This document shows positions 1-9,261 of a stretch of 9,261 nt of DNA, one piece after another. Below the pieces are notes generated by a model that did not search any database, was not told where the DNA came from, and worked only from the letters and a program-made list of their open reading frames with translations. The position numbers and the translations under genes were made by a program. Source of the DNA: a virus (lineage: Duplodnaviria; Heunggongvirae; Uroviricota; Caudoviricetes); the IMG/VR virus record IMGVR_UViG_2657245500_000015; one strand, given 5' to 3'. Each line of letters begins with the position of its first letter. Within the stretch, counting starts at the first letter, position 1.

Positions 1-74
1 TTATCGTGAGAGTAATTCATCGGCACGTTAAATCATATCAGGCGTAATACCACAACCCTTAAGTTAGCGCTTAT

Positions 75-95
75 GGGGGGAAGTCCCCCTTTTTA
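75..95 (+). terminator. Putative rho-independent terminator
   Basis: G/C stem 76-80 (GGGGG) pairs with 85-89 (CCCCC), loop AAGT, followed by TTTTT at 90-94. Stop codons in all three + frames within 1-45 are consistent with a + strand gene ending just left of or at the window start. Confidence 0.4.
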
Positions 96-435
96 ACGTC
101 ATTTTATGCAGGGAATGTGTAGTTCTACACAGATTCTATGCAGTATCGGTATAGTCCCTTTTTATTCTAACTTATTGAAATATATAAAGAATCTGCAAAG
201 CCTCTTTTCAGGGAGCTATGCAGGGTGTTAGTCGTCCCTCTCCAGACACTACATATAGTGCTATATACAGGGCTATATAACGATATATAGATGTTTGGTC
301 ACATGGTGTAACTATCAAGAAACTTAATAGTTTCCTATGTGAAAGTTATTTCTGAGGGTGGGTAAGTGCTCAGGAGATTTCATGAGGATAATTCTTATCC
401 GAATCATCACGTAGAACACGCTTAAGCACAGATAC

Positions 436-458
436 AAAAAAGCCCCCATGAAGGAGGC
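436..458 (-). terminator. Putative rho-independent terminator of the recombinase gene
   Basis: On the minus strand the RNA reads GCCUCC-UUCAU-GGGGGC (6-bp stem with one G-U pair) followed by UUUUUU; it lies 27 nt downstream of the recombinase stop at 485. Confidence 0.55.
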
Positions 459-484
459 TATGAATCTATGCAGGTGATGAGAAA

Positions 485-1051
485 TTATTCAGCTTTAATA
501 CGCTGTACAGTTGACTTGGCAACGTTGAATTGAGCGGCTACTTTAGCGATTGAACTACCAGCAGCAAGAGCAGCTTTAATACCTTCTCTGTCAACCGCTT
601 TACCGTTACCCCTTCCAACTACACGACCAGCAGCTTTAGCAGCTTCATAACCTTCTCTTTGACGCTCAAGCATCATTTTACGTTCAGCTTCAGCCACTGC
701 TGAAAAGATTGTGAGAATCATCTTAGACGTGGGGTTATCGTCACCAGTTATCAGACCTTCTTTGTGAAAGTGAACCTTGATACCTTTCTGTGAAAGTTTA
801 TCCACCAGCGTTAATACATCCACGGTAGAGCGCCCTAAACGTGACAGGTCGTGTACATGGATAGTGTCACCTTCACGAACATAATCGAGCATAGCCTTTA
901 GTTGTGGACGGTCTGTATTCTTCCCAGATGCTTTATCAGTAAATACCTTATCCAGTACGACCCCTTCAAGTTGACGGTCTGTAATCTGCTGGATTGATGA
1001 AACTCGAACATAACCAATGTTAGCCATAATATACTCATTTGCCTTACTCAT
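485..1051 (-). CDS. Serine recombinase, resolvase/invertase family
   Basis: N-terminus MANIGYVRVSSIQQ matches the catalytic-serine motif of Hin/Gin/gamma-delta resolvase; also FTDKASG, DLSRLGRS, ILTIFSAVAEAER E-helix, and a C-terminal HTH (SSIAKVAAQFNVAKSTVQRI). The likely true start is the internal Met at 1027 (MANIGY...), since the ATG at 1051 has no SD. Confidence 0.9.
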   Translation of the reverse strand: MSKANEYIMANIGYVRVSSIQQITDRQLEGVVLDKVFTDKASGKNTDRPQLKAMLDYVREGDTIHVHDLSRLGRSTVDVLTLVDKLSQKGIKVHFHKEGLITGDDNPTSKMILTIFSAVAEAERKMMLERQREGYEAAKAAGRVVGRGNGKAVDREGIKAALAAGSSIAKVAAQFNVAKSTVQRIKAE

Positions 1052-1071
1052 TTGATGGATTGAGTATAACG

Positions 1072-1153
1072 TACCGATAAAGTGTTTTACAAGGCTAATC
1101 GGTATGGTTTTTACAGGGGGTTAGCTATACCTTTTTAGTATGCTATATCGGTA
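1072..1153. promoter_or_regulatory. Candidate recombinase binding (res/crossover-like) region upstream of the recombinase gene
   Basis: Inverted pair TACCGAT (1072-1078) and ATCGGTA (1098-1104), a further ATCGGTA at 1147-1153, and direct GTTTTACAAGG / GGTTTTTACAGG motifs. Its position just 5' of the recombinase gene is typical for res sites. Not validated. Confidence 0.25.
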
Positions 1154-1519
1154 TGCCTAAGAGATGGAGATGCCTTTACAGCAACTCACATAGAAAGTCA
1201 ATAGATATTTGGCTTTTTTGCAAAGGGGGTCACATAGCTGGTGTGACGGGTACTTAGCAGGTATAGACCTGTGATAGATATTTTCGAAGATTCGGGGAAG
1301 ATGAGATTCAAAGAGGGCTAGTCATTTTTTATAAAAATTTTCAGACTCTGAAAAGTTACTGTACAGATTTTATACAGATATCTTTAAAGTATCTGTAAAG
1401 ACTTTTAAGATAAGAGATAGATATCCCAGAAAGGATATCCGTTTAGAAAACCTGTTAAGTATCTCTTAAAAGAGAGTAAACCTTGTCAATAGTGATTGCA
1501 ATAAAAATTTTTATTTCTT

Positions 1520-2182
1520 ATGTCAATTGAGCATATTTTAATCGGGAAACATCATGGGGGTTCTGATTACTGGAGAACTCCATTTCTTATATTCCGCAAT
1601 TTGCACCGTGAGTTTAGTTTCAGTCTGGATGGTGCTGCAACTGAGCATGACACGCTGTTACCACGATTCACCAATGATATTCACAATCAGTCATGGGATG
1701 GTGAACGGGTGTTCTGTAACCCACCATACAGCGACACTAAAACATTCCTCCTAAAAGCCGCTGAAGCGGATTTAGCGGTATTCCTGATACCGTACCGACC
1801 CCACACCACATACTGGCTTAAGCACCTCTTCACAAACCCGCTTTGCCATGAAATCCGTATTCTTCATCGTGCAGTTAAATACCTTCCACCAGCAGGGCAT
1901 AACGGGCTTGCTATTAGGTCACCGTTTGCAAGTGCAATTGTCATCTTTAAAACTGAGCCACGCAGACATGAAATTACGCAGATGATTTGCTGTGCTGATA
2001 CATTGCTACCGTTAACCATCATTAACAGAGGAGGCTTAAGAGGAAGACCCACCATTTACCCACCTGAGACGCTCGACAGCTTCATAAAGCTATACAGGCA
2101 AGGAAAACCCATTAAGTGCATTGCAGATGCTCTCAGAATGCCTCTGAGCACGTCATACAGGATTGCGCAAAGGTTGAGCTAA
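1520..2182 (+). CDS. Dam-family DNA N6-adenine methyltransferase with C-terminal invertase-type HTH domain
   Basis: WRTP, FSLDGAATEHDTLLPRF, VFCNPPYSD and VFLIPYRP motifs are typical of phage (T1-type) Dam methyltransferases. The last ~55 aa (NRGGLRGRPT...LYRQGKPIKCIADALRMPLSTSYRIAQRL) match the GRP plus HTH C-terminal domain of Hin/Gin-type serine recombinases. No obvious SD before the ATG at 1520. Confidence 0.8.
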   Translation: MSIEHILIGKHHGGSDYWRTPFLIFRNLHREFSFSLDGAATEHDTLLPRFTNDIHNQSWDGERVFCNPPYSDTKTFLLKAAEADLAVFLIPYRPHTTYWLKHLFTNPLCHEIRILHRAVKYLPPAGHNGLAIRSPFASAIVIFKTEPRRHEITQMICCADTLLPLTIINRGGLRGRPTIYPPETLDSFIKLYRQGKPIKCIADALRMPLSTSYRIAQRLS

Positions 2183-2286
2183 AATTCTCATAAATATGGC
2201 CATTTACAAGACAGGTGATTTAGATATTAAGAAGTATCCCTGTGAACAATAAATGACCAATCAGTAATTATTCTGTGAAATAATTG

Positions 2287-2315
2287 TTGCAATCTATAAT
2301 CACACATGATATAGT
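2287..2315 (+). promoter_or_regulatory. Candidate sigma70 promoter (TTGCAA-N17-TATAGT) upstream of the replication gene
   Basis: TTGCAA at 2287-2292, 17-bp spacer, TATAGT at 2310-2315. Confidence 0.35.
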
Positions 2316-2548
2316 TTCATAGTGGGCTGATAAAAAAGTTCATGTCTTGAAGTGGTAACACTTGGGGAGGTGTCAGATGATTGACGTCAACAAGACCTCT
2401 CATTCAGGGTAATTACCTCAGCGTTTTAATCATCGTACTGTTTCAGGCATGGACTTCTTTATCAGTCCATCAATCCCCCAGATATTTTAATCACACAGGC
2501 TAATCGGTTTTATCCGGTTGGCCTTTTCACGTATGAGGTAATTTATGA

Positions 2549-3487
2549 ATGTCTAAATATAACCCAAATCAGTTTTATAAATTTGATGTGCGAATCTCTC
2601 AGCTTTCAGAAGAAATTAACGCAGCAGCAAGATTAATTTATATGGTCATGGTTCATAGCTGTGATTTCTATGAAGAGAAGTACAAAGCATATTCACCAAG
2701 TATTGACCATCTAGCTTATATGGCTGGTGTTTCAAAGAGAACGGCAATCAGAGCTATTGAGACACTTGAGAAACACGGTTTAATTCAGGTGCAAAAGAAT
2801 CAGGGTCGTCAAAGCACTTATCGTGTATTCACACTGGATGATAAGCCGGAATTACTTGTAAGACCTACATCACAGGAAGTTGCAGCCTCAGTAAGACAAA
2901 ATGACACCACTACCAGTGACAAAATGTCATCAGTACCAGTGACAAAATGTCATGGGGGTAGTGACAAAATGTCACCCGTGTTAGATAAGTTATTAGATAA
3001 AACATTAGATAATAATATTATAGATAAGAGTAAAGATACTGAACTTGATGTTGGTATCAATGAAGATGATTTTCTTTCTTTGGATGAATTAAATGATTTT
3101 CTCTCTATGAATGAATCTGACCTTGATAGTGAAGCTACTAAAGAGACCTCTAAAACATCTGACTTAGAGGAAGATAAAATCTCTGATGTGAATGAAGTTA
3201 GTGACCAGCAAGATACACCTTGCCGCCTCGAATCAACTGATGATGAATTACCGGATGTTGACCTTGATGATGAAGAAGACCCTGAAGAGGAATTGAAACG
3301 TGAACAGCGTAAAGCAGAAATTAAAGAAAGATTCAGAAAGGCAAAGCTAAAGAACAGGATTGATGAACTTGATGACTTTGATGATAGTGACGATGATTTT
3401 ACTTTTACACCAAAAAAGAAAACTCACACCGAGCCAAAGAAAGAAAAAGTTAAAGTCAGACGTGTTTATGCTGGAGGAATGTTTTAA
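2549..3487 (+). CDS. Replication initiator protein (N-terminal HTH DNA-binding domain, acidic C-terminal tail)
   Basis: N-terminal region (SIDHLAYMAGVSKRTAIRAIETLEKHGLI) resembles HTH-type phage/plasmid replication initiators. Four iterons and an AT-rich tract lie inside the coding sequence, as in lambda O/ori. SD GAGG at 2534-2537. The C-terminal third is highly acidic low-complexity sequence. Confidence 0.8.
   Translation: MSKYNPNQFYKFDVRISQLSEEINAAARLIYMVMVHSCDFYEEKYKAYSPSIDHLAYMAGVSKRTAIRAIETLEKHGLIQVQKNQGRQSTYRVFTLDDKPELLVRPTSQEVAASVRQNDTTTSDKMSSVPVTKCHGGSDKMSPVLDKLLDKTLDNNIIDKSKDTELDVGINEDDFLSLDELNDFLSMNESDLDSEATKETSKTSDLEEDKISDVNEVSDQQDTPCRLESTDDELPDVDLDDEEDPEEELKREQRKAEIKERFRKAKLKNRIDELDDFDDSDDDFTFTPKKKTHTEPKKEKVKVRRVYAGGMF
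2893..2975. repeat. Iteron array: four copies of the palindromic motif (a)GTGACAAAATGTCA(t) at ~23-bp spacing
   Basis: GACAAAATG cores at 2895-2903 (degenerate copy AGACAAAATGACA), 2918-2926, 2941-2949 and 2963-2971. Each full site has dyad symmetry (TGACA-AAA-TGTCA). The 23/23/22-bp period is about two helical turns. Confidence 0.7.
2981..3029. other. AT-rich tract with repeated TTAGATAA (putative DNA unwinding element of the origin)
   Basis: TTAGATAA at 2981-2988, 2993-3000 and 3005-3012 (12-bp period), and TAGATAAG at 3022-3029, immediately downstream of the iterons. Same order (iterons then AT-rich) as lambda ori. Confidence 0.5.
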
Positions 3488-3777
3488 TGAAAGAATATAA
3501 CGGTGAAAAACGATACAAAGATTATCTATTAAGGCGCTACAGCATTTCTCGTGAAGGTCATCTTCTGAAAGATACTCATGGGGAGGTTTACCGGATTCGA
3601 CCGAAGAAGGAAGGAAAGAATTATTTCTTTTTTGATGGTGTGACAGATTTAAAGATTGACGCTTTGAGGTTTGCAGTGATGTATCATTTTGATGTCTGGG
3701 ATTCAGTCCACCAGCTACGATTAAAAGACGGTGACCCCGGTAATCTGAAGGCCACCAATATCATCACAAAACGTTAG
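3487..3777 (+). CDS. Hypothetical small protein, NUMOD4/HNH_3-like (possibly degenerate HNH)
   Basis: The ATG overlaps the replication gene stop (TAATG coupling) and GGAGGA SD lies at 3471-3476. YSISREGHLL, ALRFAVMYHF and LRLKDGDPGNLKATN parallel the Y.VSN.GRV / HRLV / HIDGNK.NN.NL pattern of small HNH homing-endonuclease-like proteins, but the conserved His positions appear replaced. Confidence 0.6.
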   Translation: MKEYNGEKRYKDYLLRRYSISREGHLLKDTHGEVYRIRPKKEGKNYFFFDGVTDLKIDALRFAVMYHFDVWDSVHQLRLKDGDPGNLKATNIITKR

Positions 3778-3959
3778 TTTGTTTTACCATCATCAATCGT
3801 AATTGTGATTTCATATTTGAAAAGCTTAATGCTGAAATTGAATCGTGTACTTTTGGCGATAATCATTTTTAAAAGCTGATACACCAGAAGCACCAGAAAC
3901 ACAAAGCAACCTAAGCTTGCGAATCTGTGAGATTCAGCAATTGTTTCAAGAAAGCCCAT
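3774..3959 (-). CDS. Small hydrophobic (probable membrane) protein, 61 aa
   Basis: Minus-strand ORF with a predicted transmembrane stretch (LGCFVFLVLLVYQLL). SD-like AAGGGGA 5 nt upstream of the ATG, and a candidate minus-strand promoter at 4011-4038. Its 3' end overlaps the convergent ORF ending at 3777. Confidence 0.4.
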   Translation of the reverse strand: MGFLETIAESHRFASLGCFVFLVLLVYQLLKMIIAKSTRFNFSIKLFKYEITITIDDGKTN

Positions 3960-4010
3960 TAATTCCCCTTATTTATCAAAGGGAATGACCTGTATCAGCC
4001 CCTATAACCA

Positions 4011-4038
4011 TAATATCATGTAAATGAGATGTTGACAA
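4011..4038 (-). promoter_or_regulatory. Candidate minus-strand sigma70 promoter (TTGTCA-N16-TATTAT)
   Basis: The reverse complement of 4033-4038 is TTGTCA and of 4011-4016 is TATTAT, with a 16-bp spacer. It would drive the small hydrophobic ORF 3959->3774. Confidence 0.35.
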
Positions 4039-4060
4039 TATGTTAAATAAATGTTAAGAT
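4032..4060 (+). promoter_or_regulatory. Candidate sigma70 promoter (TTGACA-N17-TAAGAT) for the 4097-4812 operon
   Basis: TTGACA at 4032-4037, 17-bp spacer, TAAGAT at 4055-4060. Its -35 overlaps the -35 of the divergent minus-strand promoter. Confidence 0.4.
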
Positions 4061-4096
4061 TGTAGTATGAGTAAGAGATTTAAGGAGATTTTTACA

Positions 4097-4387
4097 ATGA
4101 CTCACACAGTTACGCGCCTTTTGCCAGAGGCATTTGAACGACTGGCAGCAATCAAAGCCAAATATCCCGATATGAAGCACACAGCGCTTGTTGCAGAGGT
4201 TTTAAAAGAGCCGGTAGACTTGACCCCTTTCGATAACGTTAAGGGCGTTGCAGAGGGTTCTAAGGCCATCAGAATCACAACGGGCCAACTGGAACTACTC
4301 AAAGCACAGTCCGCAGTAGCAGGTTGCTCAATGATTCAGGTCTTAAGCGCAAAGGTTCATCAATTAGCGGATAAGCTGGGGGTTTAA
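4097..4387 (+). CDS. Hypothetical DNA-binding protein, ribbon-helix-helix-like (possibly two tandem RHH motifs)
   Basis: The start is moved to the ATG at 4097 because of the AAGGAG SD at 4082-4087 (the ATG at 4067 sits on the promoter). TVTRLLPEAFERLAAIKAKY...HTALVAEVL and IRITTGQLELLKAQSAVAG...MIQVLSAKV each fit a beta-strand/helix/helix RHH pattern. Confidence 0.65.
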   Translation: MTHTVTRLLPEAFERLAAIKAKYPDMKHTALVAEVLKEPVDLTPFDNVKGVAEGSKAIRITTGQLELLKAQSAVAGCSMIQVLSAKVHQLADKLGV

Positions 4388-4812
4388 TGCTATGTACATT
4401 TGATTATCATGCGTTTTATCGACATAGAGGTCATCTTGTCCGTGAGAATAACGGAACATGGAAAGATTTAACTCGTAATGCTGAACCCTTCACACACCAG
4501 CAATTAAAATCCCGCTTCTCCAGATGGAAGAATGCACCAGCAGATACTGGTGATTTTGAGATTATCCATACCTTCGATTATGCCTCAGAAGATGACCTTC
4601 ACGATGCAATTAAGCTGATTGAAGACTTCAATACCTCAGAAAATGTGGATGGTGACAAATATAAATCCCGTGGTAACCGCTATAACCGTGATGATATCAC
4701 TCAGGCCATAAATGCTGGTCAATCTCAGCGATACATTACAGAAAAATATGGTATTTCACGGAGACAGTATTTCTACGTTAAATCATTGATTAATAAAGAC
4801 AATTCAAAATAA
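4387..4812 (+). CDS. Hypothetical protein with C-terminal helix-turn-helix
   Basis: The ATG overlaps the upstream stop (TAATG), indicating translational coupling. C-terminal ITQAINAGQSQRYITEKYGISRRQYFYV resembles resolvase/HTH_23-type HTH motifs. Confidence 0.65.
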   Translation: MLCTFDYHAFYRHRGHLVRENNGTWKDLTRNAEPFTHQQLKSRFSRWKNAPADTGDFEIIHTFDYASEDDLHDAIKLIEDFNTSENVDGDKYKSRGNRYNRDDITQAINAGQSQRYITEKYGISRRQYFYVKSLINKDNSK

Positions 4813-4971
4813 CCATCTCAGTAACGGTAGAATGCACTTTACAGGCAGAGTTGCACCTTAATTTGATAAATTACCTTACCAGCCAGTGCAACTCCCTCTG
4901 TAACCCGCATGGTTACTGGCCTCAGAATGGCTATTTTAAGAGGTCTGAGATGTGTTTTAGAGGAATTTAAA

Positions 4972-5295
4972 ATGAGCAATTACGAATTACAGATTTTCGT
5001 TGATAACGACACCGCTATGATGATTCAGGCTTTCAGTGATTCCGGTGTATCAATTGATTTTGACAGGCTGTTAAAGCTGATGGCTGATAATGCAGAAAAC
5101 ATCTCTGACTTTATTCAGTCGGTGGAGTTTAACGAGCCTCGAATGATGCTACCAATTACCGACTCAAACATGAAAAGATTGGTTATCGAGCAAACGAACA
5201 AACACAGTATTTCCCCAGAGCAATTTTTGAAAGGTGCTGTGACAATCCTGCACAGCGATAATATTCTGGTGACGGATTCTATGAGGGTTCACTAA
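4972..5295 (+). CDS. Hypothetical protein (107 aa)
   Basis: The start is placed at the ATG at 4972, preceded by GAGGA at 4959-4963; the longer ORF from 4909 has no SD. No family recognised. Confidence 0.6.
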   Translation: MSNYELQIFVDNDTAMMIQAFSDSGVSIDFDRLLKLMADNAENISDFIQSVEFNEPRMMLPITDSNMKRLVIEQTNKHSISPEQFLKGAVTILHSDNILVTDSMRVH

Positions 5296-5372
5296 TGGGA
5301 TTGATAATTGCTTGGACAGCTTTAGGTTTATTTGTTGGTTGCTGGGTGGGCAACACAGTAAATAAGAATTGA
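5295..5372 (+). CDS. Possible 25-aa hydrophobic peptide (MGLIIAWTALGLFVGCWVGNTVNKN)
   Basis: The ATG overlaps the stop of the upstream gene (TAATG at 5293-5297). The peptide is a single predicted transmembrane helix. Below the size cut-off of the ORF track. Confidence 0.3.
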   Translation: MGLIIAWTALGLFVGCWVGNTVNKN

Positions 5373-5396
5373 TGTTACCAATCTGTTAAAAAGCTG

Positions 5397-5425
5397 TTGA
5401 CAAATAACCTTAAGCATGGCATAAT
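5397..5425 (+). promoter_or_regulatory. Consensus-like sigma70 promoter (TTGACA-N17-CATAAT)
   Basis: TTGACA at 5397-5402, 17-bp spacer, CATAAT at 5420-5425; predicted transcription start near 5432. Confidence 0.5.
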
Positions 5426-5620
5426 TGTATATATGAGGATAGTCTTCTATCCGAAGTCTATAGGAAGAGCAATTTTTCCTAAAATCATATTTTCAATAAT
5501 CCGATGGATGGATATTCTGAGTTGGAAAGGTGCAATGCTTTTCGTCATGGCCTTTCAGTTTAGTCTGAGAGGTCATCTCAAAAAGTGCTTAATCATTCAT
5601 TATTGAACCCTTACAGCTTT

Positions 5621-5650
5621 GCCCTAACTCATGATTAGGGCGTTTTCTTT
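5621..5650 (+). terminator. Rho-independent terminator
   Basis: Stem GCCCTAA (5621-5627) pairs with TTAGGGC (5635-5641), 7-nt loop, followed by GTTTTCTTT. About 220 nt downstream of the 5397 promoter. Confidence 0.55.
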
Positions 5651-5720
5651 AAGAGTTTTGAAACAGAGCTTTTAAAGAAAGTTTTCCTGAAACTTCGTTA
5701 ACGTTATAAGCAAACCTTCA

Positions 5721-5755
5721 AAGCCCTTCACAGATTATGTTTAGGGCTTTTCTTA
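5721..5755 (+). terminator. Second terminator-like hairpin
   Basis: AAGCCCT (5721-5727) pairs with AGGGCTT (5743-5749), 15-nt loop, followed by TTCTT. Weaker than the first because of the large loop. Confidence 0.3.
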
Positions 5756-5851
5756 ATAGAGCATCTTTAATAAATCGTTAAGTCATCTTCTAAGTGTATT
5801 GGCGTTGAAGGTGCTCTATTAAGAAATAACCACACTTAGAGGAAAAAAATA

Positions 5852-6562
5852 ATGACAAACGATATTTACATTAATGGCAAAGTGATTGATAGCTTCGGTG
5901 ACTGGTCACCACAGACTGAACATCCAGCTATCGCTATTCAGCGCAAAGAGCACGATGCGAGAATTGCACTTGAGCAATCGCTAAAGATGACACCAAAGGA
6001 AATTACCTTTGTGGCTCCTGAACCTCAAGAGATGCCCGATATTGGCAAAACTGAAGCATTATTTAATCTTGAGCGCGAATATTACCCACAGTTAAAAGAA
6101 CAGCGCCTTAGATTAGATGACGCTTACAGCAAAGTTACCTTGATGCAATCAGCTATTGAGCCGTCAGAATTTGAGATTCAGGATGAATTGTCACAGAAAC
6201 CATTTGTCTATTACCAATACGAAGACAATGATGGTTTTGGTACTTTTCCAGAAAACATCACAGGCGTGATTAGTAGTCTTCCTGATGGATATCGAATTGT
6301 GAAGATGGTTAAAGCTTCAAGAGGTGCTGGTCAGTTTATTTACATGACCAATAAGAGCGATGAAGAACTCCGTGAAATTGCCAGACAGAACATCTTGGCA
6401 TCACGTAACAAGCAACTTGAAAATGTTAAGTTGTATCTCTCAAGAGAGCTTCAGGCTATGAAAGAGCTTGTTAGTGAATATGAGTCGCAGAAGAAGATTG
6501 CTATGCAAGCCGATATTGAGCAGCTTACGAAGATTTCTCAGAAGTATAGCAAAGCGATTTAA
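5852..6562 (+). CDS. Hypothetical protein (236 aa, C-terminal predicted coiled coil)
   Basis: Long ORF with SD AGAGG at 5838-5842 and ATG at 5852. No family recognised. Confidence 0.75.
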   Translation: MTNDIYINGKVIDSFGDWSPQTEHPAIAIQRKEHDARIALEQSLKMTPKEITFVAPEPQEMPDIGKTEALFNLEREYYPQLKEQRLRLDDAYSKVTLMQSAIEPSEFEIQDELSQKPFVYYQYEDNDGFGTFPENITGVISSLPDGYRIVKMVKASRGAGQFIYMTNKSDEELREIARQNILASRNKQLENVKLYLSRELQAMKELVSEYESQKKIAMQADIEQLTKISQKYSKAI

Positions 6563-6578
6563 TTTAAGTGAGGTGAGA

Positions 6579-6794
6579 ATGATTGATTTGCAACAGCGTT
6601 ATGAAACTATTAAGTCGGCTTGTGAAAACTTAAAGTTACAAACCAAGCCAGCCTTAAGAATTAAAACCAAACATCAAATTATCACCTCACACAAACCAAA
6701 AACACGCAAGATTCCAAAGTGGTGTATTGACCGTATTCCTTCTGATGCTCAAATCATAGGTGAAACGGAATTACATTATCTTGTCCGACATTAA
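6579..6794 (+). CDS. Hypothetical small basic protein (71 aa)
   Basis: ATG at 6579 preceded by GAGGTGA at 6568-6574. The longer ORF from 6468 overlaps the preceding gene and lacks an SD. Confidence 0.5.
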   Translation: MIDLQQRYETIKSACENLKLQTKPALRIKTKHQIITSHKPKTRKIPKWCIDRIPSDAQIIGETELHYLVRH

Positions 6795-6821
6795 AAAAGA
6801 ATTGGTTGGGTAAAAATCAAC

Positions 6822-6863
6822 GGGAGAGATTATCGAGTGATATCGGTAGTTTCTCCCTTTTTT
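6822..6863 (+). terminator. Putative terminator hairpin with T-run
   Basis: GGGAGA (6822-6827) pairs with TCTCCC (6852-6857), followed by TTTTTT at 6858-6863. The loop is long (24 nt), so stability is uncertain. Confidence 0.4.
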
Positions 6864-6870
6864 GTATGTG

Positions 6871-6913
6871 TGCTACGTGAAATCTTCTGAACAGATATAC
6901 CCACCAAAAATTA
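6871..6913. repeat. Direct repeat copy R1 (TGCTACGTGA-AAT-CTTCTGAACAGATA...AAAAATTA)
   Basis: About 43 bp, near-identical to 9110-9152: blocks TGCTACGTGA (10/10), CTTCTGAACAGATA (14/14) and CAAAAATTA match, with a short variable linker. R1 is additionally bounded by the 7-bp inverted repeat GCTACGT (6872-6878) / ACGTAGC (6920-6926). Confidence 0.7.
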
Positions 6914-6954
6914 TTTTTTACGTAGCTCACGCTTAAAGAGGTGAAAAAATATGA

Positions 6955-9021
6955 ATGGCACAATTTAAAGTTGATGATTTTCTGATTGAGCTAGGTTTTA
7001 ACTCTCAGAGGGTTTTAAAAGGTCTGGAAAAAGCCGAGAAACAAACGATGCAGGTAGCATCACGAATTGAGAAGCGATTGAATAAAGCTTTTAAAGTTAA
7101 CCCTACGCCTTTAAATGATTCTCTCAAGGTCATGGAAAGAAATGTCGATAAAACTGTTTCCAAGATTGAGCAGCGTCTTAAAAACACTAAAGCGTTTAAG
7201 ATTAAAACGGAAATTGAGGATACTTTAAAGCCACTTAGACAACCGAGACAGCCACGAATTAGCGGAAGCAGAGCAATTACAGCAGCGCATAGCGTGAATA
7301 TGAGCAAGCTTCGTGACTTTAATCCTATGCTTGAGAAGTATTTTAAAAGCCAGTATTACAGCTTAAGCAGTAAATCCAAGACACTTGGAAACGAAGCTTT
7401 TAATCGTGAGTTAGCAAAATTAAATCAATCTCTTCGTGAAACACTTTCTAAGTTTAACAAGACCACCAGCAAAAATAATCACAGTGAAAATGCTTCGAAT
7501 GGTCTGGATGTATTAGCTACGAGTGCAATCAAAGCAGGTACAGCCATTTATAGTTTTCAGACAGCCTTAGAAGCTTACAGGCGGATTATGGAGGTTGGTC
7601 TGAAAAAAGAAGCATCACAACGAGCGGCACAATTCGTTTTAGGTGATGAAGGTGCTAAACGAGCTACAGAATTTGTTAAGAATCTTGCTGATAGTAGTGG
7701 TGTAGACCAGATTGAAACATTAAGCAGTTTTGCTAAGTTTTCCGCTGGTGCTGGTGATATGAATGCAGACCAGAAAGAATCCTTATTTTCTAATGTGATT
7801 GGTACATCCAGATTAATGGGGCTAAGCACCGATGAAATTAACGGGATTTTAAAAGCTTTCGAGCAGATGGCATCTAAAGGAAAGATTCAGGCTGAAGAGC
7901 TACGCGGTCAATTAGGTGACAGAATGGCAGGTGCTTTTCAGTTATTTGCCAGAAGTCTTGGGATGACTACGGAAGAATTAGACAAGGCTATGAAAGACGG
8001 TAAGGTTCTTTCTAAAGATGTTCTCCCTAAAGTATCCGCTGAAATGGGAAAGATGATTGATAAAGCGGGAGGATGGGAAAAGATTATTAACTCTACTCAG
8101 ACGCAGTTAGGCCGCTTAAGTAATTCATGGAATAATAATTTGGCCTTAATGTTCGATGGTTCACAGGAAGGTTTAACAGACTTTACAAGGTCACTGACTA
8201 ATTTACTTAATTCACTGGGTGGTCAATCTAAAAATCTTGGTGAACATTTTGGCGACTTGATGAAAAGCATGTCAAACGGTATTGATGATTTAACCACGAT
8301 TAGCTACCGAGTGCAGGGATTCTTTGACAGAGTGACCCTTGCTTACAGAGAATTAAATGACACTCAAAAAGCTGTAGCTGATGGTATCGCAAATGGCCTG
8401 TTAAGTGCATTAAAGGGACTTGCTGGTATTGTCGCTGTAAGGTCTGGTATTGGTGCTGTAGGTGGTATCTGGAACTTAATTAGGGCTATTTCCACGCTTG
8501 GGAATGTAGCAAATACAGCAGCAGGAAGAATTAATTCACGTTCTGGTGGTGTTGAAAGTGGAAAAAGTAGGCTATCTGTAGCTGATGCAATTACCAGAGT
8601 AATGATTGTCGGTATGACAACTGATGTGATTAATGCCATTGTCAAACCGTTCTATGAACGTCAGATGAGTAAGTCAGATAATCCGATTGATAAAGTTGTA
8701 AGGTCAAAGGTGGAACCCACAGACCAGGCATTAACTGGTGACATGAACTCTTTAGCCGCTGTTTTATGGGCTATGGTTCATGGCAAATCAAAAGATGTTC
8801 CACAGTTTTCACCTGAAGCATTAAATAATCTAAAAGGTCGAGTGGAAACATTCACACAAGATTTAAAGGTTATCAAGCCGTCAGTAAATATTCAGCCTCA
8901 GACAATCAATATCACAACTCAGACGGTACTTGATGGAAAGGTTATTGATGAAAGAACCACATCGCATATTAATCGTATGCAGGAAGATACCTTGATTAGC
9001 TCAGCTTACCCAGAGGAATAA
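6955..9021 (+). CDS. Tape-measure-domain protein (phage tail tape measure-like), 688 aa
   Basis: The segment FEQMASKGKIQAEELRGQLGDRMAGAFQLFARSLGMTTEELDKAMKDGKVLSKDVLPKVSAEMGK matches the conserved tape-measure domain pattern (SKGK.Q.EEL..QL..R.PGA.Q..A...G....EL...M..GK.L...VLP). A Gly-rich hydrophobic segment (GLAGIVAVRSGIGAVGGIWNLI) is typical of tape-measure proteins. SD AAAGAGGTGA at 6936-6945. Confidence 0.85.
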   Translation: MAQFKVDDFLIELGFNSQRVLKGLEKAEKQTMQVASRIEKRLNKAFKVNPTPLNDSLKVMERNVDKTVSKIEQRLKNTKAFKIKTEIEDTLKPLRQPRQPRISGSRAITAAHSVNMSKLRDFNPMLEKYFKSQYYSLSSKSKTLGNEAFNRELAKLNQSLRETLSKFNKTTSKNNHSENASNGLDVLATSAIKAGTAIYSFQTALEAYRRIMEVGLKKEASQRAAQFVLGDEGAKRATEFVKNLADSSGVDQIETLSSFAKFSAGAGDMNADQKESLFSNVIGTSRLMGLSTDEINGILKAFEQMASKGKIQAEELRGQLGDRMAGAFQLFARSLGMTTEELDKAMKDGKVLSKDVLPKVSAEMGKMIDKAGGWEKIINSTQTQLGRLSNSWNNNLALMFDGSQEGLTDFTRSLTNLLNSLGGQSKNLGEHFGDLMKSMSNGIDDLTTISYRVQGFFDRVTLAYRELNDTQKAVADGIANGLLSALKGLAGIVAVRSGIGAVGGIWNLIRAISTLGNVANTAAGRINSRSGGVESGKSRLSVADAITRVMIVGMTTDVINAIVKPFYERQMSKSDNPIDKVVRSKVEPTDQALTGDMNSLAAVLWAMVHGKSKDVPQFSPEALNNLKGRVETFTQDLKVIKPSVNIQPQTINITTQTVLDGKVIDERTTSHINRMQEDTLISSAYPEE

Positions 9022-9109
9022 ACAATGTTAGAGCTACTAATATTTATTGCCACACATGGCAATCTATTAATCTTTATCTAGTATGACGATTCAACTATGA
9101 ATAGTCGAA

Positions 9110-9152
9110 TGCTACGTGATTTCTTCTGAACAGATACCAACATCAAAAATTA
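9110..9152. repeat. Direct repeat copy R2
   Basis: Near-identical to R1 (6871-6913); lies 89 bp downstream of the tape-measure gene stop. It lacks the right-hand ACGTAGC inverted-repeat arm seen at R1. Confidence 0.7.
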
Positions 9153-9261
9153 GATGAACCGCCCCGGGTTTCCTGGAGAGTGTTTTATCTGTGAACTCAG
9201 GCTGCCAGATCATTGTTTCCGATGGAAGCATAATAAGCTTTTTCTGCTTCTGCCGGAGGAG
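9112..9261 (-). CDS. Possible 3' end of a minus-strand gene continuing beyond the window (partial)
   Basis: The minus-strand frame is open for 49 codons from the window edge to a TAG at 9112-9114 (...LIFDVGICSEEIT*). The last ~110 bp are about 50% GC by manual count, against roughly 40% elsewhere. A + strand frame from the ATG at 9154 is also open, so strand and reality are uncertain. Confidence 0.25.
   Translation of the reverse strand, partial: LLRQKQKKLIMLPSETMIWQPEFTDKTLSRKPGAVHLIFDVGICSEEIT

What the first reader, a model, noticed from the sequence alone, without database searches (positions are those of the whole stretch)
2893..3029. Origin-like iteron array and AT-rich tract embedded in the replication initiator gene
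Four copies of the dyad-symmetric 13-16-bp motif TGACAAAATGTCA recur with 23/23/22-bp periodicity (two helical turns), followed directly by a 50-bp AT-rich tract with TTAGATAA repeated at 12-bp intervals. All of it lies in-frame inside the initiator gene (encoding ...TTTSDKMSSVPVTKCHGGSDKMSPVLDKLLDKTLDNNIIDK). This is the lambda O/ori arrangement; the N-terminal HTH domain would bind the iterons. No helicase-loader or primase gene follows; the next gene is a small HNH-like ORF.
Basis: partly seen in the sequence, partly recalled or inferred. Interest (0 to 1): 0.55.

Follow-up and report, generated by a model that had tools for sequence, protein, structure and literature searches.

The report
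Replication origin inside its initiator gene
A small E. coli mobile island very probably carries its replication origin (four initiator-binding repeats plus an easily melted AT-rich stretch) inside the initiator gene itself, a textbook arrangement found here in a little-studied, satellite-like element.

Summary
There are three exact copies of AGTGACAAAATGTCA and one degenerate copy, spaced 23/23/22 bp. They are followed by the least stable DNA segment of the whole window. All of it lies inside a 312-aa gene.

The origin reading is strongly supported by comparison. Related E. coli islands carry three different N-terminal winged-helix domains. Each has its own four-copy dyad-symmetric repeat array at the same gene position, while the C-terminal half is shared. 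The repeats fall in all three reading frames and encode a linker predicted to be disordered.

The same 13-bp repeat recurs in HTH_36 phage initiators across phyla, where it is usually followed by a DnaC-like loader or a DnaB helicase. This island has neither.

Verdict: a new member of a known kind.

Side findings: the host element is an 11-12 kb island with a serine integrase, a tape-measure gene and a Dit-like gene. It is essentially free of GATC and may be an undescribed phage satellite.

The parts
2287..2315 (+). Promoter-like site (TTGCAA-17-TATAGT, with TG) upstream of rep. Transcription from here would run through the origin.
   Evidence: This is a consensus match only, and the number of such sites in the region is not above the shuffle expectation.
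2549..3487 (+). rep: 312-aa modular replication initiator (N-terminal winged-helix domain, disordered linker, C-terminal effector module).
   Evidence: ORF. Pfam HTH_36 scores 29.5 bits against a cut-off of 25. PHROG 'replication initiation / O-like / DnaD-like' families match at E 1e-9 to 1e-10. AF2 model.
2579..2863 (+). Coding region for the winged helix-turn-helix DNA-binding domain (aa 11-105), the presumed iteron reader.
2894..2906 (.). Iteron 1, degenerate (AGACAAAATGACA), in reading frame 0.
   Evidence: The exact repeat in this frame would start with a TGA stop codon.
2915..2929 (.). Iteron 2 (AGTGACAAAATGTCA). Dyad TGACA-AAA-TGTCA, encodes SDKMS.
2938..2952 (.). Iteron 3 (AGTGACAAAATGTCA). 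Lies in a different reading frame and encodes VTKCH.
2960..2974 (.). Iteron 4 (AGTGACAAAATGTCA), next to the AT-rich tract. Encodes SDKMS.
2975..3045 (.). AT-rich tract, the presumed DNA-unwinding element. TTAGATAA at 2981, 2993 and 3005; ATAGATAA at 3020.
   Evidence: Least stable 40/60/100-bp segment of the window, z about 4. The same holds in islands L001 and L033 and in the type C locus L004. GC is 23-29%. ATAGATAA-type repeats follow the same iterons in unrelated viral contigs.
3052..3118 (.). Zone of mosaic breakpoints. Upstream (N-domain + iterons + AT tract) the DNA is cassette-specific; downstream it is shared by all types.
   Evidence: blastn hits of type B and C islands start at query nt 504 or 570, which is window 3052 or 3118. 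Protein alignment.
3066..3116 (+). Two in-frame 27-nt repeats encoding acidic-hydrophobic motifs (DDFLSLDEL / NDFLSMNES). This is a protein-level repeat at the start of the shared C-terminal module.
   Evidence: D3. Shared by some members of all three cassette types (L002, L004) but replaced in others (P0122, P0124, L007). One copy is missing in strain 2018-11-3CC.
3281..3361 (+). Coding region for the only confidently predicted C-terminal helix (aa 245-271, basic).
   Evidence: pLDDT 81-91. Conserved across types.
3368..3406 (+). Coding region for the conserved acidic motif LDDFDDSDDDFTF. A basic tail follows.
   Evidence: Invariant L274, F277, D279, D281-283 and F284 in alignment A3. The resemblance to the SSB C-terminal tip is from my own knowledge and is not tested.

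Best explanation
Coordinates 2894-3045 are the vegetative (theta-type) replication origin of an 11-12 kb integrative island. The origin lies in the part of the initiator gene that encodes a disordered linker.

Proposed mechanism. Only the sequence features are shown; every functional step below is inferred.
1. Rep is made from mRNA that reads through the origin.
2. Dimers of its N-terminal winged-helix domain bind the four dyad-symmetric repeats (TGACA-AAA-TGTCA, spaced 22-23 bp). The central A-tracts and the phasing bend the DNA into an initiator-DNA complex.
3. The stress is relieved by melting of the adjacent AT-rich tract (2975-3045).
4. The shared C-terminal module (acidic-hydrophobic motifs, a basic helix, a DDFDDSDDDFTF motif) recruits a helicase, primase or restart protein supplied in trans by the host or a helper phage. 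The island encodes no helicase, loader or primase.

The N-domain, repeats and AT tract behave as one exchangeable specificity cassette of about 500 bp.
For: Shown by sequence and computation:

1. The repeats and the AT tract are present and non-random.

2. The copies lie in all three reading frames. The one frame-0 copy is altered exactly where TGA would arise, so the constraint acts on the DNA rather than the protein.

3. Three cassette types occur in the same E. coli island family.
- Type A: TGACAAAATGTCA.
- Type B: AACCAGAATTTGGTT.
- Type C: GTCAAAATCTTTGAC.
Each type has about 4 copies spaced 22-23 bp at gene nt about 345-430, followed by an A/T-rich stretch. Each is tied to a different N-domain, and all share one C-terminal half. 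The association was perfect in all 16 gene copies inspected (the window plus 15 loci). Each repeat type occurs only in its own gene.

4. Among type A variants, the region spanning the repeats and AT tract shows markedly fewer substitutions than the N-domain coding region. That region does carry indels and repeat-unit conversions in individual strains.

5. In the AF2 model the N-domain has pLDDT above 90. The region encoded by the repeats and AT tract (aa 116-165) is disordered.

7. The literature describes the same layout.
- pSK41 Rep binds four Rep boxes central in rep. Its linker is encoded by the ori and is dispensable. Its C-terminal domain is genus-specific and binds DnaG.
- In pPR9 about 500 bp (N-domain + ori) was swapped for a Pfam PF13730 (HTH_36) N-domain, and the plasmid still replicates (PMC5703833). 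I found repeats followed by an AT tract in the pPR9 rep gene.
[quoted passage not shown] 8. The identical 13-mer array followed by an AT tract recurs in HTH_36 proteins on viral contigs of 28-56% GC. In five of the seven contigs whose flanking genes I examined, the next gene is an IstB/DnaC-like ATPase, a DnaB helicase or ParA. Staphylococcus phage 77 has a related array (TTGACGCAAAYGTCAA) in its annotated replication initiation gene, directly upstream of a DnaC-like helicase loader.
Against: There is no experimental evidence for binding, unwinding or replication.

- No DnaA box, IHF site or GATC lies in or near the array.
- The island has no helicase, loader or primase gene.
- The family was seen only integrated in chromosomes: 160 places, none on plasmids. 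It is absent from IMG/VR, so it has never been observed as a free replicon.
- In type B islands the A/T-rich stretch after the repeats is not among the three least stable segments.
- The N-domain is also a generic winged HTH. By sequence alone, the PDB profile search finds only MarR/SlyA-type regulators.
- Pfam support for HTH_36 is modest (29.5 bits against a cut-off of 25).
Confidence: 0.8

Rival explanations
1. The repeats are only an autoregulatory operator. Rep binds inside its own gene as a transcriptional roadblock, or for copy control, and replication does not start here.
For: The N-domain is a winged HTH of the kind used by MarR/SlyA repressors. Binding sites inside a gene can block elongation. 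No DnaA or IHF sites accompany the array.
Against: Each repeat type is absent from the island's promoters. The only repeat-like 13-mer at a promoter (4033) is conserved in all three types, so it is not type-specific. The array is always followed by an A/T-rich tract, which in types A and C is the least stable DNA of the locus. The best fold matches are initiators. Relatives sit in phage replication modules. Autoregulation could also coexist with origin function.
Confidence: 0.07
2. The array is a decoy or interference site. It titrates the initiator of an invading or helper phage that has the same repeat specificity, as cloned phage origins can do, and it does not serve the island's own replication.
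For: The same 13-mer is used by many phage initiators. Cloned lambda replication regions are reported to inhibit lambdoid phages (abstract of PMC3349717, listed). The island lacks its own replisome genes.
Against: The island encodes its own matching N-domain, which co-varies with the repeats. A pure decoy would not need that. No coliphage in the 50,697-record phage collection carries this N-domain or this array.
Confidence: 0.05
3. The array is a packaging (pac) or partition (centromere-like) site, bound by some other protein.
For: pac sites and centromeres can be repeat arrays inside genes. The island carries tail genes, so it presumably interacts with phage particles.
Against: No terminase, ParA or ParB gene is present in the island. 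The repeats co-vary with the DNA-binding domain of the very gene that holds them.
Confidence: 0.04
4. The repeats are a by-product of slippage or duplication in a low-complexity linker and have no function at the DNA level.
For: The region encodes a disordered linker. Unit loss and unit conversion occur in some strains.
Against: A 22-23 nt period is not a multiple of 3, and the copies use all three reading frames. The 15-mers are exact. The same 13-mer is conserved from Escherichia to low-GC viral contigs while the flanking protein sequence diverges. In the one case seen, loss of a unit left a frameshifted pseudogene.
Confidence: 0.02

Closest known systems
RepA_N-type plasmid initiators with an in-gene origin (pSK41 Rep), and the natural pPR9 chimera
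   Different: There is no sequence match to Pfam RepA_N and no pairwise similarity to pPR9 Rep. The host is a Gram-negative chromosomal island rather than a Gram-positive plasmid. The C-terminal module is unrelated and mostly disordered and acidic. Its partner is unknown, whereas the pSK41 domain binds DnaG.
RepA and ori of the Vibrio cholerae phage satellite PLE
   Different: The PLE origin lies in a non-coding region, whereas here it lies inside rep. There is no detectable sequence similarity. PLE's dependence on its helper phage ICP1 is proven, whereas no helper is known here.
Bacteriophage lambda O protein and ori-lambda (and lambdoid relatives)
   Same: The origin lies in the middle of the initiator gene. 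Four dyad-symmetric, A-tract-containing repeats are followed by an AT-rich tract. The N-terminal domain binds the repeats and the C-terminal part recruits the replisome. N-domain and repeats vary together among relatives (PMC7466680). The lambdoid prophage next to the island in strain W444 shows in-gene repeats at a similar position.
   Different: There is no sequence relationship (BLASTP E 0.12 to the neighbouring prophage's replication protein; no Phage_rep_O hit). No P-like or DnaB/DnaC-like gene follows.
HTH_36 replication initiators of temperate phages (e.g. Staphylococcus phage 77 ORF016; Lactobacillus phages KC5a and phiPYB5)
   Same: They share the N-domain family and the layout of repeats followed by an AT tract inside the gene. 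The repeat grammar is related: phage 77 has TTGACGCAAAYGTCAA spaced 22-24 bp. Metagenomic relatives carry the identical TGACAAAATGTCA.
   Different: Those proteins end in Phg_2220_C, DUF6017 or other domains, and most of those examined are followed by a DnaC-like loader or a DnaB helicase. The E. coli protein has a C-terminal module found in only three 50%-identity clusters among 1.84 billion representatives, and no loader gene follows it.

Membership tests
Pfam HTH_36 (PF13730) winged-helix N-domain, as in phage and pPR9 initiators | Sequence match above the curated gathering score | tested here: met
   29.5 bits against a cut-off of 25, aa 22-79. The precomputed Pfam annotation of all 120 close homologues is PF13730.
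Lambda O family (Pfam Phage_rep_O) | Sequence membership of the N-terminal domain | tested here: not met
   No such family among the Pfam hits at E <= 0.01. Only PHROG families annotated 'O-like' match, at E about 1e-9.
Lambda O family (Pfam Phage_rep_O) | Origin (repeats + AT-rich tract) inside the initiator gene | tested here: met
   Layout as described in PMC7466680.
Lambda O family (Pfam Phage_rep_O) | A P-type helicase-loader gene immediately downstream | tested here: not met
   The next ORF (3487-3777) and all other island ORFs have no helicase or loader family hit.
RepA_N initiators (Pfam PF06970) | Sequence match to the RepA_N domain | tested here: not met
   Not among the Pfam hits. 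PLE RepA likewise lacks sequence similarity and was assigned to the family by structure (PMC7145576).
RepA_N initiators (Pfam PF06970) | N-domain fold (winged helix of the DnaD-NTD type) | tested here: met
RepA_N initiators (Pfam PF06970) | Semi-palindromic direct repeats converging on a poly-A tract, located centrally in rep | tested here: met
   TGACA-AAA-TGTCA, four copies at gene nt 346-426 of 939. Feature as described in PMC7145576 and PMC5703833.
RepA_N initiators (Pfam PF06970) | The central linker encoded by the ori is dispensable for protein function | not testable with these tools
   Only indirect evidence: the region is predicted to be disordered and differs completely between cassette types.
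Iteron-type theta origin (general) | The initiator binds the repeats and melts the adjacent AT-rich DNA | not testable with these tools
   Inferred from co-variation and from the stability minimum.
Iteron-type theta origin (general) | Accessory DnaA box or IHF site, common in enterobacterial iteron plasmids | tested here: not met
   No TTWTNCACA or WATCAANNNNTTR in 2300-3600. This feature is common but not obligatory.
PLE-like phage satellite | Small island, large serine recombinase integrase, own initiator + ori, no replisome genes | tested here: met
   Complete copies are 11-12 kb, lie in yecE or between yciI and tonB, and end with a 507-aa Resolvase+Recombinase+Zn-ribbon protein. The window copy is cut by IS629 before that gene.
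PLE-like phage satellite | Helper-phage-dependent excision, replication and packaging | not testable with these tools
   No helper is known. The element is absent from IMG/VR.

The most novel reading that the evidence does not exclude
The rep-ori cassette belongs to an undescribed family of E. coli/Shigella/Salmonella phage satellites with a PLE-like logic. The family is an 11-12 kb island with these features:
- a large serine recombinase;
- a RepA_N-fold initiator with an in-gene origin;
- no replisome genes;
- its own tape-measure and Dit-like tail genes;
- a Dam-family methyltransferase;
- essentially complete avoidance of GATC.

On this reading the origin fires only when a helper phage, or a host restart pathway recruited by the acidic SSB-tip-like C-terminus, supplies a helicase. 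The exchangeable N-domain/repeat cassettes would set incompatibility groups among co-resident islands.
Probability: 0.35. Interest if true: 0.7.

Novelty: new member of a known kind. Interest (0 to 1): 0.45.

Why it matters
An origin embedded in its initiator gene is a textbook arrangement (lambda O, pSK41 Rep), so the finding does not change how replication initiation is understood. Its value lies in three more specific points.

1. It gives a clean natural experiment. Three swapped cassettes of DNA-binding domain plus repeats sit on one shared effector module within a single species. That makes recognition specificity and incompatibility directly testable.

2. One 13-bp repeat and its reader domain are conserved from enterobacteria to low-GC phages. 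The repeat leaves a recognisable peptide footprint (SDKMS / VTKCH / QNVT), which could be used to annotate origins automatically in thousands of phage genomes.

3. It flags an unstudied, narrowly distributed E. coli island that has an initiator but no replisome genes, as the Vibrio satellite PLE does. This raises the testable question of whose helicase it borrows.

Tried and rejected
1. **Repeat-like 13-mer at 4033 as a second Rep site.** Rejected. TGACAATATGTTA overlaps a promoter -35 and is conserved unchanged in type B and C islands, so it does not follow Rep specificity.

2. **Direct relatives among cultured phages and plasmids.**
- The N-domain query found only a weak Parageobacillus phage hit.
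- The repeat DNA found only a chance-level Agrobacterium phage hit.
- P0139 against plasmids gave nothing useful.
- No plasmid carries the island; only IS ends match.

3. **Wider distribution.**
- The genome-contig scan found one species representative.
- IMG/VR has no close relative.
- The representative search found three full-length clusters.

4. **Literature search for the exact repeat sequence.** It returned only unrelated papers. Searches for a described E. coli satellite with tape-measure and Dit genes found nothing matching.

5. **PDB search by sequence profile.** It gave only generic MarR/SlyA winged-helix hits. Fold comparison was needed to see the initiator relationship.

6. **RNA explanations.** There is no Rfam family and no tRNA or tmRNA in the window.

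7. **DnaA boxes, IHF sites and GATC in the origin.** None found.

8. **Known defence systems.** PADLOC found only 'orphan methyltransferase' for the Dam-like gene.

9. **Recognition-helix motif versus repeat type.** Across distant HTH_36 proteins the comparison was suggestive only. Types B and C lack the conserved Arg of the '...T.IR' helix, but this is not a rigorous test.

10. **Non-coding arrays of the same 13-mer.** Four related marine viral contigs carry them between lysis-like genes. Their meaning is unclear, and I do not use them as evidence.
Full report
**1. The observation**

The sequence is as described.
- AGTGACAAAATGTCA occurs exactly three times (2915, 2938, 2960). A degenerate copy, AGACAAAATGACA, lies at 2894. 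The spacing is 23/23/22.
- Allowing two mismatches, the 13-mer has 6 matches in the window against 0.50 expected. No shuffle out of 200 reached 6.
- The array is followed by TTAGATAA at 2981, 2993 and 3005 and ATAGATAA at 3020, in a stretch of 23-29% GC.
- By nearest-neighbour free energy, 2980-3040 is the least stable 40-, 60- and 100-bp segment of the whole 9261-bp window (z about 4). Every other low-stability segment is intergenic.

**2. The constraint is on DNA, not protein**

The four copies lie at frame offsets 0, 2, 1 and 2. They therefore encode three different peptides (RQND, SDKMS, VTKCH). In frame 0 the exact repeat would start with TGA. The frame-0 copy is precisely the one that reads AGA instead. 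The last spacing of 22 rather than 23 keeps copy 4 out of frame 0. The AlphaFold2 model has a confident N-terminal winged helix (aa 11-105, pLDDT 91-98). From about aa 115 to 240 it is disordered, and this stretch includes the residues encoded by the repeats (116-143) and by the AT tract (144-165).

**3. What the gene is**

- Pfam reports HTH_36 (29.5 bits against a cut-off of 25) plus weaker winged-HTH families.
- PHROGs reports several 'replication initiation', 'O-like' and 'DnaD-like helicase loader' families at E 1e-9 to 1e-10. All of these matches cover the N-terminal part.
- A PDB search by sequence profile finds only MarR/SlyA-type winged helices.
- According to PMC7145576, 4RO3 is the N-terminal domain of RepA, the replication initiator of the Vibrio cholerae phage satellite PLE. 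That paper assigns it to the RepA_N family on structural grounds.

**4. Comparative test of the origin hypothesis**

The window is E. coli DNA. Its ends match IS421 and IS629. The region around rep matches 151 of 5426 complete E. coli genomes, always on the chromosome.

A sensitive DNA search with rep alone showed two groups. 68 genomes match over 80% or more of the gene. Most of the others match only from query nt 504 or 570 onward, which is just past the AT tract.

I fetched 15 loci. They showed three cassette types in the same gene neighbourhood (Dam-like methyltransferase, rep, a 96-aa ORF and so on):
- Type A: the window's N-domain with TGACAAAATGTCA.
- Type B: N-terminus MKKETNAF..., with AACCAGAATTTGGTT-like dyads.
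- Type C: N-terminus MEKFHMFDD..., with GTCAAAATCTTTGAC-like dyads.

Each type has about four copies spaced 22-23 bp at gene nt about 345-430, followed by an A/T-rich stretch. The C-terminal half is shared by all three. Each repeat type occurs only inside its own rep gene.

This co-variation of a DNA-binding domain with repeats in its own gene is the signature of an initiator/origin pair. It is the strongest evidence obtainable without experiments.

Within type A, the region of repeats plus AT tract shows markedly fewer substitutions than the N-domain coding region. It does carry indels and unit conversions in individual strains. One strain lost a 23-bp unit, and its gene is annotated as frameshifted.

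The stretch after the repeats is the least stable segment of the locus in types A and C, but not in type B.

**5. The module is ancient and widespread**

The full-length family, including the C-terminal module, is tiny.
- It forms three full-length 50%-identity clusters among 1.84 billion representatives.
- It occurs in one of 185,579 species-representative genomes.
- IMG/VR has no close relative.

The type A N-domain and its repeats are not rare.
- 15 other proteins among the 68 representative hits carry two or more of the peptides that the repeat encodes (DKMS, TKCH and variants); the related QNVT peptide also occurs.
- An exact-pattern scan for two copies 22-23 bp apart found 17 viral contigs of 28-56% GC.
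- In 12 of these contigs the array (3-6 copies) lies at nt about 280-560 of a sizeable ORF. The eight of these proteins that I scanned comprise six HTH_36 proteins with diverse C-termini and two with no Pfam hit. The array is followed by an AT-rich tract (10-45% GC; 30% or below in nine of the twelve), in some contigs with ATAGATAA-type repeats.
- I examined the flanking genes in seven of these contigs. In five the next gene is an IstB/DnaC-like ATPase, a DnaB helicase or ParA.

A relative of the module (P0137) matches 'replication initiation protein' genes in 471 cultured phage genomes. In Staphylococcus phage 77 that gene holds TTGACGCAAAYGTCAA repeats spaced 22-24 bp, followed by an AT tract. 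The next gene is annotated as a DnaC-like helicase loader.

**6. Comparison with the known**

[quoted passage not shown] As a positive control, the lambdoid prophage next to the island in strain W444 shows in-gene repeats at a similar position. That protein is unrelated in sequence to the island's Rep.

- **pSK41 Rep, the closest described parallel.** The N-domain (1-120) binds four Rep boxes central in rep. The central domain is encoded by the ori and is a dispensable linker. The C-terminal domain is genus-specific and binds DnaG.

- **pPR9.** About 500 bp (N-domain plus origin) has been replaced by a phage-like N-domain of Pfam PF13730, and the plasmid still replicates (PMC5703833). I fetched pPR9 and found repeats followed by an AT tract in the middle of its rep gene. 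There is no pairwise similarity to the window protein.

- **RepA_N iterons.** They are described as semi-palindromic repeats converging on a poly-A tract (PMC7145576). TGACA-AAA-TGTCA has exactly that form.

**7. How it most likely works**

Shown here: the sequence anatomy, the co-variation, the frame usage, the predicted disorder, the fold similarity and the context of relatives.

Inferred:
- Rep dimers bind the four dyads.
- The complex bends the DNA and melts 2975-3045.
- The shared C-terminal module recruits a helicase or primase. That module consists of acidic-hydrophobic motifs, a basic helix (aa 245-271) and a conserved LDDFDDSDDDFTF motif.

Because no island gene matches a helicase, loader or primase family, that activity must come from the host or from a helper phage, as it does for PLE (PMC7145576). 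I put the origin reading at about 0.8. The rivals are given with their weights in the rival section: operator only, decoy, pac or partition site, and slippage by-product.

**8. The host element**

Complete copies are 11-12 kb. They are inserted in yecE (strain W444) or between yciI and tonB (strains UMNK88 and NCCP15648). The gene order is fixed:
- a variable cargo slot (a small invertase in the window and in UMNK88);
- a Dam-family methyltransferase;
- rep;
- about six small unknown ORFs;
- a 236-aa unknown ORF;
- a tape-measure protein;
- a Dit-like tail protein;
- a 507-aa large serine recombinase.

The window copy is cut by IS629 after the tape-measure gene. This combination resembles PLE in logic, and I did not find it described.

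The island is also essentially free of GATC.
- The window has 1 site (at 9208, inside the IS629 end) against about 43 expected.
- The W444 island has 0 in 11,037 bp against about 45 expected.
- Twelve other island fragments have 1 in 30.6 kb.
- The host flanks and the neighbouring prophage have normal densities.

**9. Verdict**

The feature is a new member of a known kind and its interest is moderate. The more novel leads are the candidate satellite nature of the island, its GATC avoidance, and the conservation across phyla of one initiator/repeat pair that leaves a readable peptide footprint.

Noticed in passing
window 98-9143 (whole island part); L001:18107-29143; L032:8596-15340: The island is essentially GATC-free. 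The window's only GATC (9208) lies in the IS629 end, against about 43 expected. The W444 island has 0 in 11,037 bp against about 45 expected. Twelve other island fragments have 1 in 30.6 kb. Host flanks and the adjacent lambdoid prophage have normal densities. GATC is by far the most depleted palindromic 4-mer (O/E 0.02). In L032 the GATC-free zone starts close to the island's left end (last GATC at 8428, island end about 8596). Possible reasons: escape from SeqA or MutH, or immunity to a GATC-directed nuclease. None of these was tested.
   Followed up: partly
window 1520-2182: The GATC-free island encodes a Dam-family N6-adenine methyltransferase (Pfam Dam, E 3e-15; NPPY motif). It has an unusual C-terminal resolvase-type HTH (HTH_7, aa 175-215). 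PADLOC calls it an orphan methyltransferase. Its target sequence is unknown.
   Followed up: partly
L001:18107-29143; L033:8232-20237; L034:7400-19500: The host element is a conserved 11-12 kb integrative island with this gene order: cargo slot, Dam-like MTase, rep/ori, about six small unknown ORFs, a 236-aa unknown ORF, tape-measure protein, Dit-like tail protein, large serine recombinase. It is inserted in yecE or between yciI and tonB. It has no capsid, terminase, helicase or lysis genes. It is a candidate PLE-like phage satellite, and I found no description of it in the papers searched.
   Followed up: partly
window 1-97 and 9144-9261: The window's ends match IS421 (left) and IS629 (right). 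IS629 truncates this copy of the island just after the tape-measure gene, so the Dit-like gene and the serine recombinase seen in complete copies are missing.
   Followed up: yes
window 344-1200 (invertase ORF 485-1051, minus strand): A Pin/Gin-like small serine invertase occupies a variable cargo slot. The slot is absent from the W444 island and holds a different, non-homologous sequence in L032. A small recombinase sits at the same place in UMNK88. No inverted target segment was looked for.
   Followed up: no
proteins P0137, P0139, P0140, P0141, P0145, P0160, P0167, P0177, P0182 etc.; loci L008-L019: The repeat TGACAAAATGTCA leaves a peptide footprint (SDKMS, VTKCH, and QNVT when the first T is changed to avoid TGA) in the linkers of HTH_36 initiators from very different hosts (28-56% GC). 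This could serve as an annotation marker for in-gene origins.
   Followed up: partly
L017, L020:2750-2840, L021, L024: Four related viral contigs carry four copies of AAAACTGACAAAATGTCATTTT, spaced 23-24 bp, in non-coding DNA. In L020, the one contig inspected, the array lies between lysis-like genes with no HTH_36 gene among the ORFs examined nearby. It could be an origin, an operator, or coincidence.
   Followed up: partly
L025:401-1319 (E. coli 2012C-4227): This copy lost one 23-bp repeat unit and is annotated as a frameshifted pseudogene. Another of its repeats has a flipped centre (TGACATTTTGTCA). In strain OkiPb01692, unit 2 has been converted to the sequence of unit 1.
   Followed up: yes
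window 3368-3406 (aa 274-286) and 3066-3116: Conserved acidic-hydrophobic motifs lie in the shared C-terminal module (LDDFDDSDDDFTF; DDFLSLDEL / NDFLSMNES). From my own knowledge they resemble the C-terminal tip of E. coli SSB (...DFDDDIPF). They might recruit SSB-interacting replication or restart proteins.
   Followed up: no
window 4010-4060: A pair of divergent promoter-like sites (10 of 12 matches each) lies in the gap between the minus-strand 61-aa ORF and the ORF106 operon. The -35 element of the plus-strand site overlaps the repeat-like TGACAATATGTTA (4033-4045), and this 13-mer is conserved in all three island types.
   Followed up: yes
window 3487-3777: The 96-aa ORF directly after rep, with an overlapping stop/start (ATGA), is conserved in all the complete island copies examined. 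It has no family match in Pfam, PHROGs, NCBIfam or PADLOC.
   Followed up: yes
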